Shown piece by piece: positions 4,246-64,000 of a stretch of DNA of 64,000 bases. Positions within the stretch are counted from its first letter, which is position 1; each line of letters begins with the position of its first letter. The position numbers and the translations under genes were made by a program. Origin of the DNA: Marinilabiliales bacterium (GTDB taxonomy: Bacteria; Bacteroidota; Bacteroidia; Bacteroidales; F082); NCBI GenBank assembly GCA_002869315.1, contig PKTD01000107.1, forward strand, positions 7,910-71,909, read 5' to 3'. Below the pieces are notes generated by a model that saw nothing but the letters and a program-made list of their open reading frames with translations, did not search any database and was not told the DNA's origin.

Positions 4246-7161
4246 ATGAAGAGAATTTTATTTTTTTATCTGCTCATAGCACTTGTGTTTATGGGTAGTA
4301 ATGCATTAAATGCACAAGAAACGAAGCAGCCTACACGAGTTTCAAAATCCGTATACATGGATGTTTCAAAAAAACTTAGTGACATAACACCCATTCAACC
4401 AGGATTACGTGAAAGAACATGGAAGAACAAAGAAGTTCCAAATGAATTGGATTATGAAGAAGTACTTGGTACTCCCGGACCTATGATTGGTGATGATCCT
4501 GTTCGCCAAAACAGTATGAAAAATACTACTGACGGAGGAATTATTAATCAGAATTTTTCAGGAGTTGGTAATCTTTCTGGGGTAGCACCTCCTGATACAC
4601 AGGGAGATGTTGGTCCAAACCATTATTTCCAAATGGTAAATAGTGCTTTCGCAATTTGGGATAAAGAAGGAAATTTACTTTACGGACCAGTTGATAATAT
4701 TACATTGTGGGATGGTTTCCCAGGACCTTGGTCAAGTACTAACGATGGTGATCCAGTTGTACTTTATGATGAGTATGCCGACAGATGGATAGCAACACAG
4801 TTTTCATTACCAAACTATCCTTCAGGACCTTTCTACGAATTAGTAGCAGTTTCGCAAACAGGTGATCCAACAGGAGAATGGAACAGATATGCTTTTGAAT
4901 TTAATGAGATGCCTGACTATCCAAAATTTGGTGTTTGGACTGACGGATATTACATGACAACACATAATTTTGCAGGAGGTGGTTTCACAGGAGCCGGATT
5001 AACTGTTTTTGACAGAGATGCAATGATAGCTGGTGAGCCTGTAGCTGATATGGTGGAGTTTAGTGTGGGATCTTCTTACTATGGAGTGTTAGCCGCCGAT
5101 GCTGATGGCCCAACACCGCCACCTGAAGGATCTCCTTCTTACCTTTTAGATATTATTGGTAATAGCGCAATGCGCATTTGGGAGGCTGAATTAGATTGGA
5201 ATATTCCTGATAATTCTGAATTAAGCCTTACCGCTACTTTATCAGTTGAATCTTTTTCAACCAATGGTTTGAATATTAGTCAGCCTGGTACAGGAACATC
5301 ACTTGATGCTCTTACAGGAATGACAATGTACCGTTTGCAATATCGGAATTTTGGGGATTATCAAACACTGGTAACTAACCATACTGTTAATGCAGGTGGC
5401 GGACAAGCCGGAGTGCGTTGGTATGAGTTGAGAAAAACAGATGCTAACTGGGAAATTTATCAACAGGGAACATATGCACCGGATGATGGCGATAACAGAT
5501 GGATGGCCAGTGCTGCAATGAATGGTAATGGTGATATTGCCATTGGATATTCTGTGTCCAGTTCATCAACTTATCCTTATATAAGGTTTGCCGGACAAAC
5601 TGCCGGAGCTCCAATGGGTCTAGGTGTTTTAGATATCGAAGAAACAAGTATATATGAAGGTAATAAATCTCAAACCGGTGTTAGCCGTTGGGGAGATTAT
5701 TCATGTATGACTGTGGATCCAACCAATGATGAGTCATTTTGGTTTACTACTGAATATTCAAACGGTGGATGGAGCTGGAAAACTCAGATCGCTTCATTTG
5801 GTTTTGTTCAGCCTCCTGTAGCCGATTTTAGTGCAGATGAAATATTAATACCTGTGGGAGAAAGTGTTGACTTTTTTGATGAAACTTCAGGTCTTCCTTC
5901 AGAATGGGAATGGACATTTGAGGGTGGTACCCCATCTTCCTCAACAGAGAGAGATCCTAGTGGAATTGTTTTCGACACTGAAGGCTCATTTACAGTTACA
6001 TTAACTGCTACTAATGTTCTGGGAACAGATACTAAAATAAAAGAAGGGTTTATAACTACTTCTTCATCTGTGCTTCCTGAAGTTGATTTTACAGCTGACA
6101 GATCAGAGATTTGTGTTGGCGATACAGTATATTTTACTGACCAAAGTAATTATAGCCCTAATCAATGGGCATGGTCATTTACTCCTGATGATGTTACATT
6201 TATAGAGGGTACTGATGCAAATAGTCAGAATCCGATAGTCGTATTTAATACTTCAGGCTCATTCGATGCTCATCTTCAGGTTTGGAATCTCAATGGTTCT
6301 TCAGAACTTGAGAAAACTGATATTCTTAATGCAGGAGGTCGCTTACCTTATTATAAAGAGACTTTTGAAAATGAAACCTATGCAAGTATTGGCTGGACAG
6401 TAAGTAATCCGGATGATGACGTTACATGGCAACTTTATGAAGTTGGTGGAACAACTCCGGGAATGACTGCAGCCGGTATCGACTTCTCAGATTATTTCGC
6501 GATAGGAGAAAGAGACAGATTAATTTCACCTGCTTTTAACCTTGAGGGTATGAGTAGTGCTGCAATGGGTTTCCAACACGCCTATGCACAGCGTATGGCT
6601 GATGCGGCTGACTCATTGGTAGTTTTAGTTTCTGACGATTGTGGACTTTCATGGACAAGAGTTTTTGCAGATGCCTAAAATGGTACAGGAAACTTTGCCA
6701 CTCATGAAATGACAAGTGAATTTTGGCCAGAAGTTGCTGAAGACTGGTGTATTGCCGGTTGGGGAGCAGGATGTATTGACCTTGATCTAACACCATGGGC
6801 AGGTAGTCCTAATGTTAAGGTTGCTTTTGAATCATATAGTTTCTATGGAAACCCACTTATGATTGATAACTTTACTGTAAGTCAGTATTTGAATACAGAA
6901 GAATCGGAAATTAATAAAGATCTGTTTAAGATTTTCCCAAATCCGGCTTCTACACAGTTTACTGTTCTTCTACCTGATAACTATACTTATTCAGAAGTAA
7001 TACTTATGAATCAGTTGGGTCAGGTTGTTAAAAGAGCCGATGTAGATGGAGTTTCAAATGTTGTAAACATTAGTATTGATCAAAAACTTGAAACAGGATT
7101 GTATTTTGTAAGAGTTATTGGTGCTGGAAAAGAAACTATTCAGAAACTAGTCATAAACTAG
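4246..7161 (+). pseudogene. secreted T9SS cargo protein (N-terminal propeller-like domain, two PKD domains, C-terminal Por sorting domain) interrupted by one in-frame TAA at 6676-6678
   Basis: ORFs 4246-6678 and 6709-7161 are in the same frame, and the 30 nt between them is open. Signal peptide MKRILFFYLLIALVFMGSNALNA|Q. PKD-like repeats (PVADFSADE...TVTLTATN and PEVDFTADR...). The last ~80 aa (FKIFPNPASTQFTVLL...GLYFVRVIGAGKETIQKLVIN) are a typical T9SS C-terminal domain. Confidence 0.75.
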
Positions 7162-29547: not shown

Positions 29548-30747
29548 TTGCTTGAGAAAAAAGAAACACAATTAAAAAAAGCTAAAGAAACAGCTGTTCT
29601 GGTTGGGATATCATCTAAATCAGAGGGAAGTGAGAAAATACACGAATATCTTGATGAACTGGAGTTTTTAGTAAAAACTGCAGGAGGTAAAACTATGGAG
29701 CGTTTTATACAGTCCTTGGATTTTCCTAATCCTAAAACATATGTGGGCAGTGGTAAACTTCAGGAAATAAAGGAATACATAAAAATTCAAGAAATTGAAC
29801 TTGTAGTTTTTGATGATGAATTAAGCCCTTCTCAGTTAAGAAATGTTGAGAAAGAATTGGAATGTAAAATTTTAGATCGCACAAATTTAATATTAGACAT
29901 ATTTGCTAAAAGGGCTCAAACATCACATGCTAAAGTGCAGGTAGAATTAGCGCAATATCAATACTTATTACCTCGCCTAACCAGAATGTGGACTCACCTC
30001 GAGCGTCAAAAAGGAGGAATAGGATTACGCGGTCCGGGAGAAACGGAAATTGAAACTGACCGCCGTATAATCCGCGATAAAATCAGCCTTCTTAAAAAGC
30101 GACTTACTCAAATAGACAAGCAAATGTCTACCCAGCGTAAAAATCGTGGGGAACTAATTAGAGTTGCATTAGTTTGATATACAAATGTTGGAAAATCTAC
30201 AATTATGAACCTTCTTAGTAAATCGGAAGTGTTTGCAGAAAATAAGTTATTTGCAACACTCGATACTACTGTACGAAAGGTAGTAATTGATAACTTACCT
30301 TTTCTGCTTTCTGATACTGTTGGGTTTATACGGAAACTTCCTCACGGACTTGTAGAGTCATTCAAGTCGACACTTGACGAAGTAAGAGAATCAGATATTT
30401 TAGTTCACGTTGTGGATATTTCTCATCCTGAATTTGAAGATCATATTGCTACTGTTACACAAACTCTTTCTGAAATTGGAGCTGCCGATAAAAAAGTAAT
30501 AATGGTCTTCAACAAAGTAGATGCATATACCTGGGAGGAAAAAGAGGATGACGACTTAACTCCTACAACTAAAGATAACATTAGTTTAGAAGAACTAAAA
30601 AATACATGGATGGCAAAGGAAAATAATCCTTGCATCTTTATCTCTGCTATTACAAAAGAAAATTATCATGAGTTTCGTAAACTATTATATGATAATATAA
30701 AAGAAATTCATGCCATTAGATATCCATATAATAATTTTCTCTATTAA
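29548..30747 (+). pseudogene. hflX: GTPase HflX interrupted by one in-frame TGA at 30175-30177
   Basis: ORFs 29548-30177 and 30205-30747 share a frame. Across the stop the translation reads RVALV*YTNVGKST, against the conserved HflX sequence VALVGYTNAGKST. The N-terminal part has GPGETEIETDRR. The C-terminal part has G3 DTVGF and G4 NKVD. TTG start. Confidence 0.85.
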
Positions 30748-34956: not shown

Positions 34957-36495
34957 TTAAAGCGGAATATTACCATGTTTTTTTGGTGGATTGCTATCCG
35001 ATTTATTATCAGTCATTTCCAATGCCTGATTTAATTTCTTTCTGGTATTATGAGGGAATATAATTTCATCAATATAGCCTAGTTCAGCAGCTTTATAAGG
35101 ACTGGCAAAGTTATTCCTGTAATCAGAAACGGCTTTTGCCCTTTCCTCTTCATTATTTAGTTTATTTCTGTAAATAATATTAACTGCTCCTTCAGGTCCC
35201 ATAACTGCAATTTAAGCAGTGGGATAAGCAAAGTTGTAGTCTGCACCAATATGCTTGCTCGACATTACATCGTATGCACCACAATAGGCTTTACGGGTAA
35301 TTACAGTAATTTTTGGAACTGTGGCTTCAGCGAATGCGTATAATAATTTTGCACCATGTTTGATTATTCCGCCAAATTCCTGCGCAGTACCAGGTAAAAA
35401 TCCTGGAACATCCTCAAAAGTTATTAATGGGATATTGAAGGCATCACAGAATCTCACAAAACGAGCTGCTTTTGTGGAACTGTCGATATCTAATACTCCT
35501 GCTAATACTGCCGGCTGATTAGCAACTATACCAACTGGTTTTCCTCCAATGCGTGCAAAACCAACTATAATATTTTTAGCGTAATGTGGTTGAACCTCCA
35601 GAAAGTGCTTATTATCCACAACAGGAAGTATAATTTCCATCATGTCGTATGGTTTGTTTGGATCCGTAGGTATAATATTATCCAAGGCAGGTTCTTCTCT
35701 CGACATATCGTCGATACATTCTTTTCTTGGTGGATCTTCCAGATTATTGGAAGGAAGGAAACTCATTAATTCCCTTATCATCATCATTGCCTGTTCGTCA
35801 TCATCAGCTGTAAAATGTGCAACACCTGACTTTTGATTATGAGTCATTGCACCTCCCAGGTCTTCCATGGTTACTTCTTCATTTGTAACAGTTTTAATAA
35901 CATCAGGTCCTGTTACAAACATATAAGATGTATCTTTTACCATCATAATGAAATCAGTAATTGCAGGAGAATAAACAGCTCCACCTGCACATGGACCTAA
36001 AATGGCCGATATTTGAGGGATAACTCCTGAACTTCTTACGTTACGGTAAAATATATCAGCATATCCTGCGAGACTTTCTACGCCCTCCTGAATTCTGGCA
36101 CCACCCGAATCATTAAGTCCTATTACAGGTGCTCCCATTTTCATTGCAAGATCCATTATTTTTACAATCTTATCTGCATTTGATCTGCTTAGTGAACCAC
36201 CTAGTACGGTAAAATCCTGAGCAAACGCATACATAAGTCTGCCATCGATTTTTCCATATCCGGTAACAACACCATCTCCTAGGACTTTGTTTTTGTCCAT
36301 ACCAAAATTAGTATTACGATGTGTAACAAACTTATCGATTTCTACAAATGTATCCTTATCGAATAAATGTTTAATACGCTCTCTGGCAGTTTTTCTTCCT
36401 GCTTTATGCTGTTTATCGATTCGCTCCTGGCCACCGCCAAGTTCTGCTAGTTTATGCTTTTCTTCGAGTTCCTGTATTTTTGGTCTTAATGACAT
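34957..36495 (-). pseudogene. acyl-CoA carboxylase carboxyltransferase subunit (propionyl-CoA carboxylase beta / methylmalonyl-CoA decarboxylase alpha type) interrupted by one in-frame TAA at 35212-35214
   Basis: ORFs 35212-36495 and 34957-35202 share a frame. The junction reads AYPTA*IAVMGPEGAV, against the conserved PTAEIAVMG. It ends with the canonical KHGNIPL. It also carries KAYCGAY where the family has KAYGGAY (TGT at 35281-35283). Confidence 0.85.
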
Positions 36496-52053: not shown

Positions 52054-52824
52054 ATGAAAATAAAAAATATAGTTATAATAGGATTCATCCTTATGCTGTC
52101 CACCACATATTATTCGTGCAGCAAATTGAATTCAGTAAATGGAAATGGCCATGTTCTTACTGAAGAAAGAAGGCTTGTAAACTTTGATCAGGTAAAAAAT
52201 GAAGGAGAGTTTAATGTATTCATTTCTTACGATACAGTTTATCAGGCGATAGTAGAGGCCGAAACAAATCTGATTCCTTATATCAGGACTATTGTTAACG
52301 GAAATACTTTAATTATCGATAGTAGAGAAAATTTGCGTCCTGGAATGTCAATAAATATTTATGTAAAAACCCCAAATGTAAAATATATAGAATTGAGCGG
52401 CTCGGGTACAATTTTTTGTGATTCGGTAAGTGGAGATAATGTTGGCTCAGTAATTAGTGGCTCAGGTAGTATAGAAGCCAATTTATACGGCGCTGTATCC
52501 GAACTTGATATAAGTTGATCAGGAAATATGTTGCTAAATATAGAATCATTAATGACCTATTGCGATATCAGTGGTTCTGGAGATATTTATGTATCTGGTT
52601 CTTCTACTGAAGGCGATTTTAAAATCAGCGGATCAGGTAATATTAATTCATACGATTTATATCAGGAAAAACTGGATGCTAAAATTAGTGGATCAGGAAA
52701 TATGTACGTTAATGTTTCAGATATTTTAAATGCAAAAATTAGTGGCAGTGGATCTGTTTATTATATTGGAAATCCACTTTTAGATGTTAATATAACAGGT
52801 TCTGGTTCAGTAATTAAACATTAA
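52054..52824 (+). pseudogene. lipoprotein with DUF2807/GIN (autotransporter-head-like) repeats, interrupted by one in-frame TGA at 52516-52518
   Basis: ORFs 52054-52518 and 52528-52824 share a frame. The junction reads ELDIS*SGNM, whereas the protein repeats ISGSGD, ISGSGN (twice) and ISGSGS (twice). Lipobox-like TTYYSC. Confidence 0.7.
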
Positions 52825-54852: not shown

Positions 54853-55809
54853 ATGAAGAATAGTATCTGTGAATTGTTTCAAATAAAATACCCAATTGTA
54901 CAGGGAGGTATGATTTGGTGTAGCGGATGGGAACTGGCATCAGCGGTCAGTAATGCTGGGGGTTTGGGGCTTATTGGCAGTGGTAGTATGTATCCCGAAA
55001 TTTTTGAAGAACACGTCTTAAAATGCAAAAAAGCAACTGATAAACCTTTCGGTGTTAATGTCCCTTTGCTATATCCACAAACTGATGAAATTGTTGAGAT
55101 AATAGTAAAACACGGGATAAAAATTGTTTTCACTTCTGCAGGAAATCCTGCAAAATATACTTCTTATCTCAAGGATAAAGGCATAACTGTAGTGCATGTT
55201 GTAGCCAATAAAAAGTTTGCATCAAAAGCTCAGGCAGCGGGCGTTGATGCTATTGTTGCTGAGGGTTTTGAAGCCGGAGGACATAATGGTATTGAAGAAA
55301 CAACTACCATGGTACTGATACCTATGCTAAAACAAGAAATAGATATTCCAATTATTGCTGCAGGAGGGATTGCCTCAGGGAGTTCGATATTTGCCGCTTT
55401 GGCATTAGGAGCAGAAGGAGTCCAAATAGGTAGTTTGTTTGCTTCATCAGTGGAATCTTCAGCCCATGAAAATTTTAAAAATAAAATTATTTCTGCTGGC
55501 GATGGAAGTACAAAACTTACATTAAAAAGTGTTGTTCCTGTTCGTTTGATTAAGAATGATTTTTTTAATGAAGTAGCACAAGCTGAGAGTAAAGGTGCTT
55601 CTAGAGAAGAACTTATTAGCCTGCTTGGCAAGGGTCGTTCAAAACTTTGAATGTATGAAGGCGATACTTCTAAAGGGGAATTGGAAATTGGACAGGTTTC
55701 ATCAATGATAAAGGATGTACTGCCTGTTAGTGAAATCTTTACTAATCTTATTGAAGAGTATAAACAAACAAAAAATAAAATGCAGATAAACTTGGATTTA
55801 TTTGGATAA
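54853..55809 (+). pseudogene. NAD(P)H-dependent flavin oxidoreductase (nitronate monooxygenase / FabK-like enoyl-ACP reductase II) interrupted by one in-frame TGA at 55648-55650
   Basis: ORF 54853-55650 continues in frame as MYEGDTSKGELEIGQVSSMIKDVLPVSEIFTNLIEEYK... to the TAA at 55807-55809. This 52-aa tail is below the ORF-track cutoff. The junction GKGRSKL*MYEGD corresponds to the family pattern GRxKKGMFEGD. Motifs PIVQGGM and AGGGIASG. Confidence 0.8.
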
Positions 55810-63400: not shown

Positions 63401-64000
63401 CTAAAAAATCATAGTGAAAGCAGCACCTTCGTCTTGCTTGGATCTGACACTTATGCTACCTTTATGCATCTGCATAATCTGTCGAGACAAACTCAACCCT
63501 ATGCCCGAACCAGTTTGTTTGGAAGTAAAAAATGGCATAAATATTTTATCCATTATATCGGGTTTTATGCCTTTTCAATTATCACTAATTTCTATGGTCA
63601 CCCTATTATTGAGGTTTACTGAAGCGGTAATGCTTATTTCAGGATTTTCAGAACCTTTAACGGCATCAATGGCATTTAGAAGCAGATTGATAATCACCTG
63701 ATCTATCAAATCGGGGTCGGCAAGTATTTTTAATTCGGAAGGTAATATTTTAGATTTTACTTTTACATTACACTCTTTTACATTTTTTGACAATAGTTCC
63801 AAGGCTCTGTCTATCATTTCTTTAACCTCAAAATATCTAAAGGTTGGTTTTGGAATTCGAGTAAGGTTTCTGTAAATCTCCACGAAATTCAGCAGACCTT
63901 TACTTCTCTTTTCGATGGTGTTTATGGCATGAGCTACATCATCCAGACTTTCTATATCTTCTTTTTTGCGTGGCGGATTGTTCTCACGAGTGTCCTGAAT
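63401..64000 (-). pseudogene. sensor histidine kinase (C-terminal catalytic part; 5' end off the right edge) interrupted by one in-frame TGA at 63575-63577
   Basis: The frame is open from 64000 down to the TAG at 63401-63403, apart from the TGA. The junction reads VTIEISDN*KGIKPD, against the invariant G1 box DNGxGI. Downstream are an F box (IFMPFFTSK) and a G2 box (GSGIGLSLSRQI). Confidence 0.8.

What the first reader, a model, noticed from the sequence alone, without database searches (positions are those of the whole stretch)
30175..30177. hflX: TGA replaces the glycine immediately before the P-loop
Translation across the stop is LIRVALV*YTNVGKSTIMNLL. HflX proteins have VALVGYTNAGKST at this point. 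Truncation here would remove the entire GTPase domain, yet G1 (GKST), G3 (DTVGF) and G4 (NKVD) remain intact and in frame downstream.
Basis: partly seen in the sequence, partly recalled or inferred. Interest (0 to 1): 0.6.

Follow-up and report, generated by a model that had tools for sequence, protein, structure and literature searches.

The report
One of many G-to-T stop errors
The stop codon inside the hflX GTPase gene is really in this sequence, but it is one of roughly 150-300 single G-to-T changes private to this draft genome that also cut indispensable genes, so it is most likely a DNA-damage or consensus error and not a special way of reading the genetic code.

Summary
TGA at 30175-30177 interrupts a full-length hflX (29548-30747, 399 codons). 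It falls on a column that is Gly in all 29 aligned relatives, and the G1, G3 and G4 motifs remain in frame downstream. That Gly is the first residue of the Walker A motif GxxxxGK[ST], not a residue before it.

It is not specific to hflX. A genome-wide test against a congener found 59 genes cut by one in-frame stop. In well-conserved context, 19 are TAA at Glu, 11 TGA at Gly and 7 TAG at Glu. All are the same first-position G>T change (first batch 29 of 38, 21.5% expected, P=9e-13). No frameshifts were seen.

Single-copy asnS, glnS, obgE, dnaE, secA and mreB are among the genes hit, so the stops cannot all be real in a living cell. All three stop codons are involved, RF2 is present and TGA ends genes at conserved positions. 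That excludes TGA=Gly recoding.

The window holds five more such stops and one G>T missense.

No same-species sequence was found elsewhere.

Earlier notes of this scan describe the same signature in other assemblies.

Verdict: not a real feature, low interest.

The parts
29548..30747 (+). hflX, full length if the internal TGA is read through (399 codons plus TAA stop at 30745-30747; TTG start)
   Evidence: TIGR03156 442 bits across the stop; 100% coverage of 399-aa homologues; only hflX copy in the genome
30175..30177 (+). In-frame TGA at codon 210, on the first Gly of Walker A (G-YTNVGKS)
   Evidence: Gly in 29 of 29 relatives, GGA in the two closest
30178..30198 (+). Rest of the G1/P-loop motif, YTNVGKS
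30313..30327 (+). G3 motif DTVGF
30511..30522 (+). G4 motif NKVD
30205..30207 (+). First in-frame start codon after the TGA (ATG, codon 220). It lies after GKST, so a restarted product would lack the P-loop
6676..6678 (+). Same class: in-frame TAA where congener G004 has Glu (GAG); joins ORFs 4246-6678 and 6709-7161
   Evidence: junction 61, C2 + 14584
35212..35214 (-). Same class: in-frame TAA at the Glu of PTAEIAVMG in a carboxyltransferase
   Evidence: G004 has GAA
35281..35283 (-). Same class, missense: TGT (Cys) where G004 has Gly in RKAYGGAYDV; a coding-strand G>T
52516..52518 (+). Same class: in-frame TGA at the Gly of a repeated ISGSG motif
   Evidence: junction 1; G004 has GGC
55648..55650 (+). 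Same class: in-frame TGA where G004 and G005 have Gly (GGC, GGA); the conserved tail continues in frame
63575..63577 (-). Same class: in-frame TGA at the Gly of the DNGxGI box of a histidine kinase
   Evidence: GGA, GGT in relatives

Best explanation
The TGA in hflX is a single G>T substitution of a GGA glycine codon. It belongs to a genome-wide set of unselected G>T (and some C>A) substitutions found only in this draft, metagenome-type assembly (324 contigs, 87% complete). Wherever such a change hits the first base of GGA, GAA or GAG it creates TGA, TAA or TAG. hflX is one of an estimated 150-300 genes cut this way. Indispensable single-copy genes are cut too, and nothing downstream of any stop has decayed, so the changes have never been exposed to selection. 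The most likely source is guanine oxidation (8-oxoG pairs with A and is then read as T) that reached the consensus through very low coverage or through amplification from few template molecules. In the living organism hflX most likely reads GGA and makes a normal 399-aa ribosome-associated GTPase. Shown here: the substitution, its spectrum, that it is private to this assembly, the essential-gene hits, and the exclusion of recoding. Inferred: the chemical and technical origin.
For: Private to this assembly: hflX is uninterrupted in 40 of 40 relatives, and the codon is Gly in 29 of 29.

Genome-wide test: of 227 same-frame ORF junctions, 106 aligned across the junction to congener G004. In 47 the relative also has a stop, so they are true gene ends. 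The other 59 are interruptions.

Spectrum: 54 interruptions lie in good context. They are TAA/Glu 19, TGA/Gly 11 and TAG/Glu 7, giving 37 first-position G>T. In the first batch 29 of 38 were G>T against 21.5% expected (P=9e-13). A>T routes (AAA, AAG, AGA) have equal opportunity and gave at most 1.

Rates per codon type are equal: GAA 0.8%, GAG 1.0%, GGA 0.9%.

Three further G>T stops turned up in neighbouring genes that were not used for selection.

No frameshifts were seen.

The window itself holds six stops plus a G>T missense, Gly>Cys.

The interrupted genes are single copy. They include asnS, glnS, obgE, dnaE, secA, mreB, trpB, purL and sucC.

Against recoding: all three stop codons are involved, RF2 is present at 505 bits against a cut-off of 370, and TGA sits at 7 conserved orthologous gene ends.

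G>T/C>A is the known 8-oxoG signature (PMC3616734).
Against: No reads could be examined, so the base call is unverified in either direction.

The library-shearing artefacts described in PMC3616734 stay below 10% allele fraction and favour the CCG context. Here the changes are in the consensus, on contigs up to 98 kb, with no flanking-base preference (P=0.41). An extra assumption is therefore needed: very low coverage, or amplification from few templates.

Clear coding-strand C>A stops are fewer than symmetry predicts, 3-4 against about 10. About 9 ambiguous events could fill that gap.

Events are over-dispersed among contigs, for example 5 on the 23-kb contig C40.

The genus lacks MutY, which keeps a biological G>T source possible.
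Confidence: 0.8

Rival explanations
1. The G>T changes are real mutations in the DNA of the sampled cell or population: a burst of oxidative G:C>T:A mutagenesis in a lineage without the GO-repair glycosylases. The sequenced genome would then be a recently hypermutated, probably non-viable or dying, clone or single cell, and hflX is truly truncated in that DNA.
For: MutY was not found above cut-off in this genome or in any of its 5 congeners. It is present in 20 of 26 genomes of the family, often 4-5 kb from hflX. Fpg was not found in any of the 26. G:C>T:A is the spectrum expected when MutY/MutM are lost (established knowledge). There is a possible excess on the coding strand. The changes are in the consensus of long contigs, which ordinary low-fraction library artefacts would not reach.
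Against: Congener G004 also lacks MutY, yet every one of the 59 genes is intact there. Single-copy asnS, glnS, obgE, dnaE and secA are cut, which no growing population could carry at majority frequency. Nothing else has decayed: there are no frameshifts and no secondary damage downstream. The strand asymmetry is not robust.
Confidence: 0.12
2. hflX alone is a genuine, ordinary pseudogene or split gene created by a nonsense mutation, unrelated to the other stops. HflX is dispensable in laboratory conditions in several bacteria.
For: HflX is non-essential in model bacteria (established knowledge). There is only one copy, and it is interrupted.
Against: The change is of exactly the same type as at least 37 others in the assembly, and its density matches the window-wide rate of 6 stops in about 50 genes. 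Downstream motifs are perfect, with 90% identity to relatives on both sides of the stop. No in-frame start retains the P-loop, so a functional split gene is excluded.
Confidence: 0.04
3. UGA is decoded as glycine (a table-25-like reassignment or a tRNA-Gly UCA suppressor), or is efficiently read through, so that full-length HflX is made.
For: 11 in-frame TGAs fall on Gly columns. GGA is the commonest Gly codon. The tRNA set of the assembly is incomplete, so a UCA tRNA cannot be ruled out by absence.
Against: TAA and TAG interrupt genes at the same per-codon rate, at Glu. A G>T missense lies next to one of them. RF2 is present. TGA terminates genes at 7 conserved orthologous ends and ends 95 of 1,075 long ORFs. 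None of 40 relatives has TGA in hflX. No UCA or Sec tRNA was found. TGA also falls on Trp and Arg columns.
Confidence: 0.02

Closest known systems
Oxidative-damage (8-oxoguanine) G>T / C>A artefacts in sequencing data (Costello et al. 2013, PMC3616734)
   Same: The substitution type is the same. The changes are scattered, unselected and private to one data set, with no indels.
   Different: The described artefacts sit below 10% allele fraction, favour the CCG>CAG context and show read-orientation bias. Here the changes are in the consensus and show no context preference. Read orientation could not be tested.
MutY/MutM (GO system) deficient mutators with a G:C>T:A spectrum
   Same: The spectrum is the same, and MutY and Fpg were not found in this genome.
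   Different: The whole genus lacks MutY, but the congener has intact genes. Lethal hits in single-copy essential genes cannot be carried by a growing lineage.
Genetic code 25 (UGA = Gly; Gracilibacteria and Absconditabacteria)
   Same: In-frame TGA on conserved Gly columns.
   Different: RF2 is present, TGA is used as a terminator, TAA and TAG are equally affected, the stops are absent from relatives, and the organism is a Bacteroidota of the Marinilabiliales type.
HflX ribosome-splitting GTPase (TIGR03156)
   Same: The gene itself is an ordinary member: N-terminal domain, helical linker and G domain with G1, G3 and G4, at 399 aa.
   Different: Only the single-base stop at the first Walker A glycine.

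Membership tests
GTPase HflX (TIGR03156) | Full-length match above the curated cut-off | tested here: met
   442 bits against 216.75, profile positions 2-323 matched in one stretch across the stop
GTPase HflX (TIGR03156) | G1 GxxxxGK[ST], G3 DxxG and G4 NKxD motifs | tested here: met
   YTNVGKS, DTVGF and NKVD are in frame. The first G of G1 is replaced by TGA.
Genetic code 25 (UGA=Gly) | UGA not used as a terminator | tested here: not met
   TGA lies at 7 orthologous gene ends shared with G004. 95 of 1,075 long ORFs end in TGA.
Genetic code 25 (UGA=Gly) | Loss of release factor 2 | tested here: not met
   prfB at 504.8 bits against a cut-off of 370
Genetic code 25 (UGA=Gly) | tRNA-Gly with anticodon UCA | tested here: inconclusive
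   None among the 33 tRNAs found, but the set is incomplete: tRNA-Gly(UCC), Ala, Glu, Ile, Thr and Tyr are also missing
Genetic code 25 (UGA=Gly) | In-frame UGA at Gly shared with relatives, and only UGA affected | tested here: not met
   Private to this assembly. TAA and TAG interrupt genes at Glu at the same rate.
Selenoprotein (UGA=Sec) | UGA on a Cys/Sec column, with tRNA-Sec present | tested here: not met
   The column is invariant Gly. No tRNA-Sec was found. SECIS and selA/selB were not searched.
8-oxoG library artefact (PMC3616734) | G>T / C>A substitutions dominate | tested here: met
   37 of 54 interruptions are first-position G>T, plus 3-4 C>A; P=9e-13
8-oxoG library artefact (PMC3616734) | CCG>CAG sequence context | tested here: not met
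   The preceding base matches background (chi-square P=0.41). GGA and GAA/GAG are hit at equal rates.
8-oxoG library artefact (PMC3616734) | Low allele fraction and read 1/read 2 orientation bias | not testable with these tools
GO-repair-deficient mutator | Absence of MutY and MutM specific to the affected lineage | tested here: not met
   MutY is missing from all 6 genomes of the genus, and Fpg from all 26 family genomes searched. The unaffected congener G004 shares the absence.

The most novel reading that the evidence does not exclude
The G>T changes are real. This would be a natural Marinilabiliales-type lineage whose genus has lost MutY (and whose family lacks Fpg), caught in a burst of oxidative G:C>T:A hypermutation, possibly biased toward the non-transcribed strand, in a single cell or clonal bloom sampled before selection could act.
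Probability: 0.08. Interest if true: 0.5.

Novelty: not a real feature. Interest (0 to 1): 0.08.

Why it matters
As biology it matters little, because hflX here is almost certainly an ordinary intact gene.

It matters as a data-quality warning. About 5-10% of the genes in this assembly would be mis-annotated as pseudogenes or split genes. In-frame TGA at invariant Gly could also be mistaken for a UGA=Gly code.

The test used here separates such artefacts from true reassignment without needing reads. It checks whether all three stop codons interrupt genes at the codons one G>T step away, and whether indispensable single-copy genes are hit.

The genus-wide absence of MutY is a small genuine observation that could be followed up separately.

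Tried and rejected

2. Same-population sequence: exact look-ups of the two fragments and of the read-through protein found nothing. The best homologues are only 91% identical. A metagenome scan for the 28-base context found two contigs, both with GGA, but neither gave a BLASTN (megablast) alignment to the window, so they are not the same population.

3. A composition-only scan for interrupted genes was too unspecific. Blocks of +-25 aa worked.

4. A first count of stops inside alignments was polluted by off-frame shadow ORFs of the GC-richer relative. It was corrected.

5. The missense-spectrum test for G>T versus C>A at conserved sites was uninformative. This genome is about 3-fold AT-drifted relative to G004 at synonymous sites, and that hides any error signal.

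6. Motif-specific (methylation-type) miscalls were rejected: there is no shared context.

7. Contig-strand bias is not significant (Fisher P=0.35).

8. A functional split hflX was rejected: the first in-frame start after the stop lies beyond GKST.

9. Selenocysteine was rejected: the column is Gly and no tRNA-Sec was found.

Full report
**1. The observation**

The + strand reads GTT TGA TAT at 30172-30180. The TGA at 30175-30177 ends a 209-codon ORF that starts at TTG 29548. The same frame then continues for 189 more codons to TAA at 30745-30747.

Read through, the product is 399 aa. It matches NCBIfam TIGR03156 (GTPase HflX) at 442 bits against a curated cut-off of 216.75, in one stretch that crosses the stop. 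It also covers 100% of homologues that are almost all exactly 399 aa long.

YTNVGKS, DTVGF and NKVD are intact downstream. The first in-frame start after the stop is ATG 30205, beyond GKST, so a restarted C-terminal piece would have no P-loop.

The missing Gly is the first G of the Walker A consensus GxxxxGK[ST] itself.

**2. Is the column Gly, and is the stop shared?**

hflX was found in 40 of 40 related genomes without any internal stop, and this genome has only one copy.

In 29 aligned orthologues the codon is GGA, GGC, GGT or GGG, always Gly. The two closest relatives (90% aa identity) use GGA. The lesion is thus one G>T transversion, private to this assembly.

**3. The organism and its genetic code**

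The assembly has 324 contigs and 3.29 Mb, and is 87% complete. Its nearest named relatives are Marinilabiliales/Bacteroidota MAGs.

The window is densely coded under table 11, with ORFs up to 1,123 aa.

RF2 is present at 505 bits against a cut-off of 370. No tRNA with a UCA anticodon and no tRNA-Sec was found, although only 33 tRNAs are assembled.

TGA lies exactly where the orthologue of congener G004 ends in 7 genes, and in 5 of these G004 also uses TGA. TGA is a working terminator in this genome.

**4. The decisive result: hflX is not alone**

I listed every place in the genome where two ORFs of at least 70 codons share a frame across a single stop. I kept those that score as coding on both sides and have no other open frame across the region, which left 227 junctions. 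I then asked whether congener G004 (98% complete) has one continuous gene across each (compiled).

Of the 227 junctions, 106 aligned across. In 47 the relative also has a stop, so these are true gene ends. In the other 59 it has a sense codon, so these are interruptions.

Among the 54 interruptions in well-conserved context:

| Stop in this genome | Residue in G004 | Count |
|---|---|---|
| TAA | Glu | 19 |
| TGA | Gly | 11 |
| TAG | Glu | 7 |
| TAA | Asp | 3 |
| TAA or TAG | Ser | 4 |
| TAA | Ala | 2 |
| TAA | Asn | 2 |
| TAA or TAG | Tyr | 2 |
| TAA | Arg, Thr | 1 each |
| TGA | Trp, Arg | 1 each |

GGA>TGA, GAA>TAA and GAG>TAG are the same event, a G>T change at the first codon position. 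In the first batch this class made up 29 of 38 events, against 21.5% expected if all nonsense-creating changes were equally likely (P=9e-13). AAA, AAG and AGA offer the same number of opportunities through A>T and gave at most one event.

Rates per codon type are equal at 0.8-1.0% within the selected sample.

Three more G>T stops appeared in neighbouring genes that had not been used to choose the loci. From these three stops and the window count in section 5, I estimate roughly 1.5-3 changes per thousand susceptible G. That projects to about 150-300 truncated genes, and a few thousand G>T/C>A changes genome-wide. This projection is an inference.

No frameshifts were seen among the alignments.

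**5. The window itself**

Six in-frame stops lie in about 50 genes:

| Position | Strand | Stop | Residue in relatives |
|---|---|---|---|
| 6676 | + | TAA | Glu |
| 30175 | + | TGA | Gly |
| 35212 | - | TAA | Glu |
| 52516 | + | TGA | Gly |
| 55648 | + | TGA | Gly |
| 63575 | - | TGA | Gly |

All were verified against relatives.

In the carboxyltransferase, 23 codons upstream of its TAA, GGT has become TGT: RKAYGGAYDV in G004 reads [10 protein letters not shown] here. No model of stop-codon decoding can explain that missense change.

An earlier first-reader note on this window (e1-3977555) lists the same six stops, and e1-3977560 describes the missense. My genome-wide scan found four of the six independently, and I then checked the other two and the missense.

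**6. Can the stops be real?**

The interrupted genes include asparagine-tRNA ligase, glutamine-tRNA ligase, ObgE, DNA polymerase III alpha, SecA, MreB, the Na+-pyrophosphatase, TrpB, PurL and SucC. Each has a single close copy in this genome.

A growing population cannot carry majority nonsense alleles in most of these genes. No gene shows further decay downstream of its stop. The changes have therefore not been exposed to selection.

**7. What made them?**

G>T/C>A is the signature of 8-oxoguanine, known both as a library-preparation artefact (PMC3616734) and as the spectrum of MutY/MutM-deficient cells (established knowledge).

*The artefact reading.* It fits the private, unselected, indel-free pattern. 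However, the published artefact stays below 10% allele fraction and prefers the CCG context. Here the changes are in the consensus and show no context preference. Very low coverage or amplification from few damaged templates has to be assumed.

*The biological reading.* MutY was not found above cut-off in this genome or in any of its five congeners. It is present in 20 of 26 genomes of the family, often 4-5 kb from hflX. Fpg was found in none of the 26. But G004 shares these absences and has all 59 genes intact, so the loss of repair alone does not explain this assembly.

*Strand symmetry.* Clear coding-strand C>A stops (3-4) are fewer than symmetry predicts (about 10). About nine ambiguous events could fill that gap. 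The contig-strand split is not significant, and a missense-based test was swamped by natural AT drift. I treat the asymmetry as unproven.

**8. What could not be done**

No same-species sequence exists in the protein collection or in the metagenome contigs searched. The origin of the changes, technical or biological, is therefore inferred and not shown.

**9. Verdict**

The stop is one of many private, unselected G>T substitutions, and it is not a decoding feature.

| Reading | Probability |
|---|---|
| Damage or consensus artefact | about 0.8 |
| Real but unselected mutational burst | about 0.12 |
| Independent ordinary hflX pseudogene | about 0.04 |
| UGA=Gly recoding or read-through | about 0.02 |

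Earlier notes of this scan report the same signature in several other assemblies (e1-2035403, e1-4875533, e1-302281, e1-3025094). I did not test those and they carry no weight here.

Novelty: not a real feature. Interest: low.

Noticed in passing
window 6676-6678, 35212-35214 (-), 52516-52518, 55648-55650, 63575-63577 (-): Five further genes in the window are cut by one in-frame stop at a Gly (TGA) or Glu (TAA) column. They are a secreted repeat protein, a carboxyltransferase, an ISGSG-repeat protein, a FabK/NMO-like oxidoreductase and a histidine kinase.
   Followed up: yes
window 35281-35283 (-): Missense G>T (GGT>TGT, Gly>Cys) in the conserved RKAYGGAYDV motif of the carboxyltransferase, 23 codons upstream of its TAA.
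   Followed up: yes
whole genome G000 and congeners G001-G005; family genomes G006-G045: MutY (TIGR01084) was not found above cut-off in any of the 6 genomes of this genus, but it is present in 20 of 26 family genomes, often 4-5 kb from hflX. Fpg (TIGR00577) was found in none of the 26. The genus may have lost the GO-repair glycosylases.
   Followed up: partly
G000 contig C40 (23 kb): Five interruptions lie on one 23-kb contig (asnS, glnS, an RND pump and others) where 0.4 are expected by length. The events are over-dispersed among contigs, which might reflect coverage differences or how the sites were selected.
   Followed up: partly
G000:C98 about 11637 (dnaE); G000:C199 (polyprenyl synthase); G000:C23 about 485: A minority of interruptions are not G>T: TAG at a Tyr (TAT) in dnaE, TGA at an Arg (AGA), and TGA at a Trp (TGG).
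   Followed up: partly
G000:C148:24448-25467 (-), locus L040: The prfB match starts at profile position 12 in a 345-aa open frame. This may reflect the usual programmed +1 frameshift near the start of RF2. Not examined.
   Followed up: no
whole genome G000: Only 33 tRNA genes are assembled. tRNA-Ala, Glu, Ile, Thr, Tyr and Gly(UCC) are missing, as is typical when rRNA/tRNA clusters fail to assemble.
   Followed up: no
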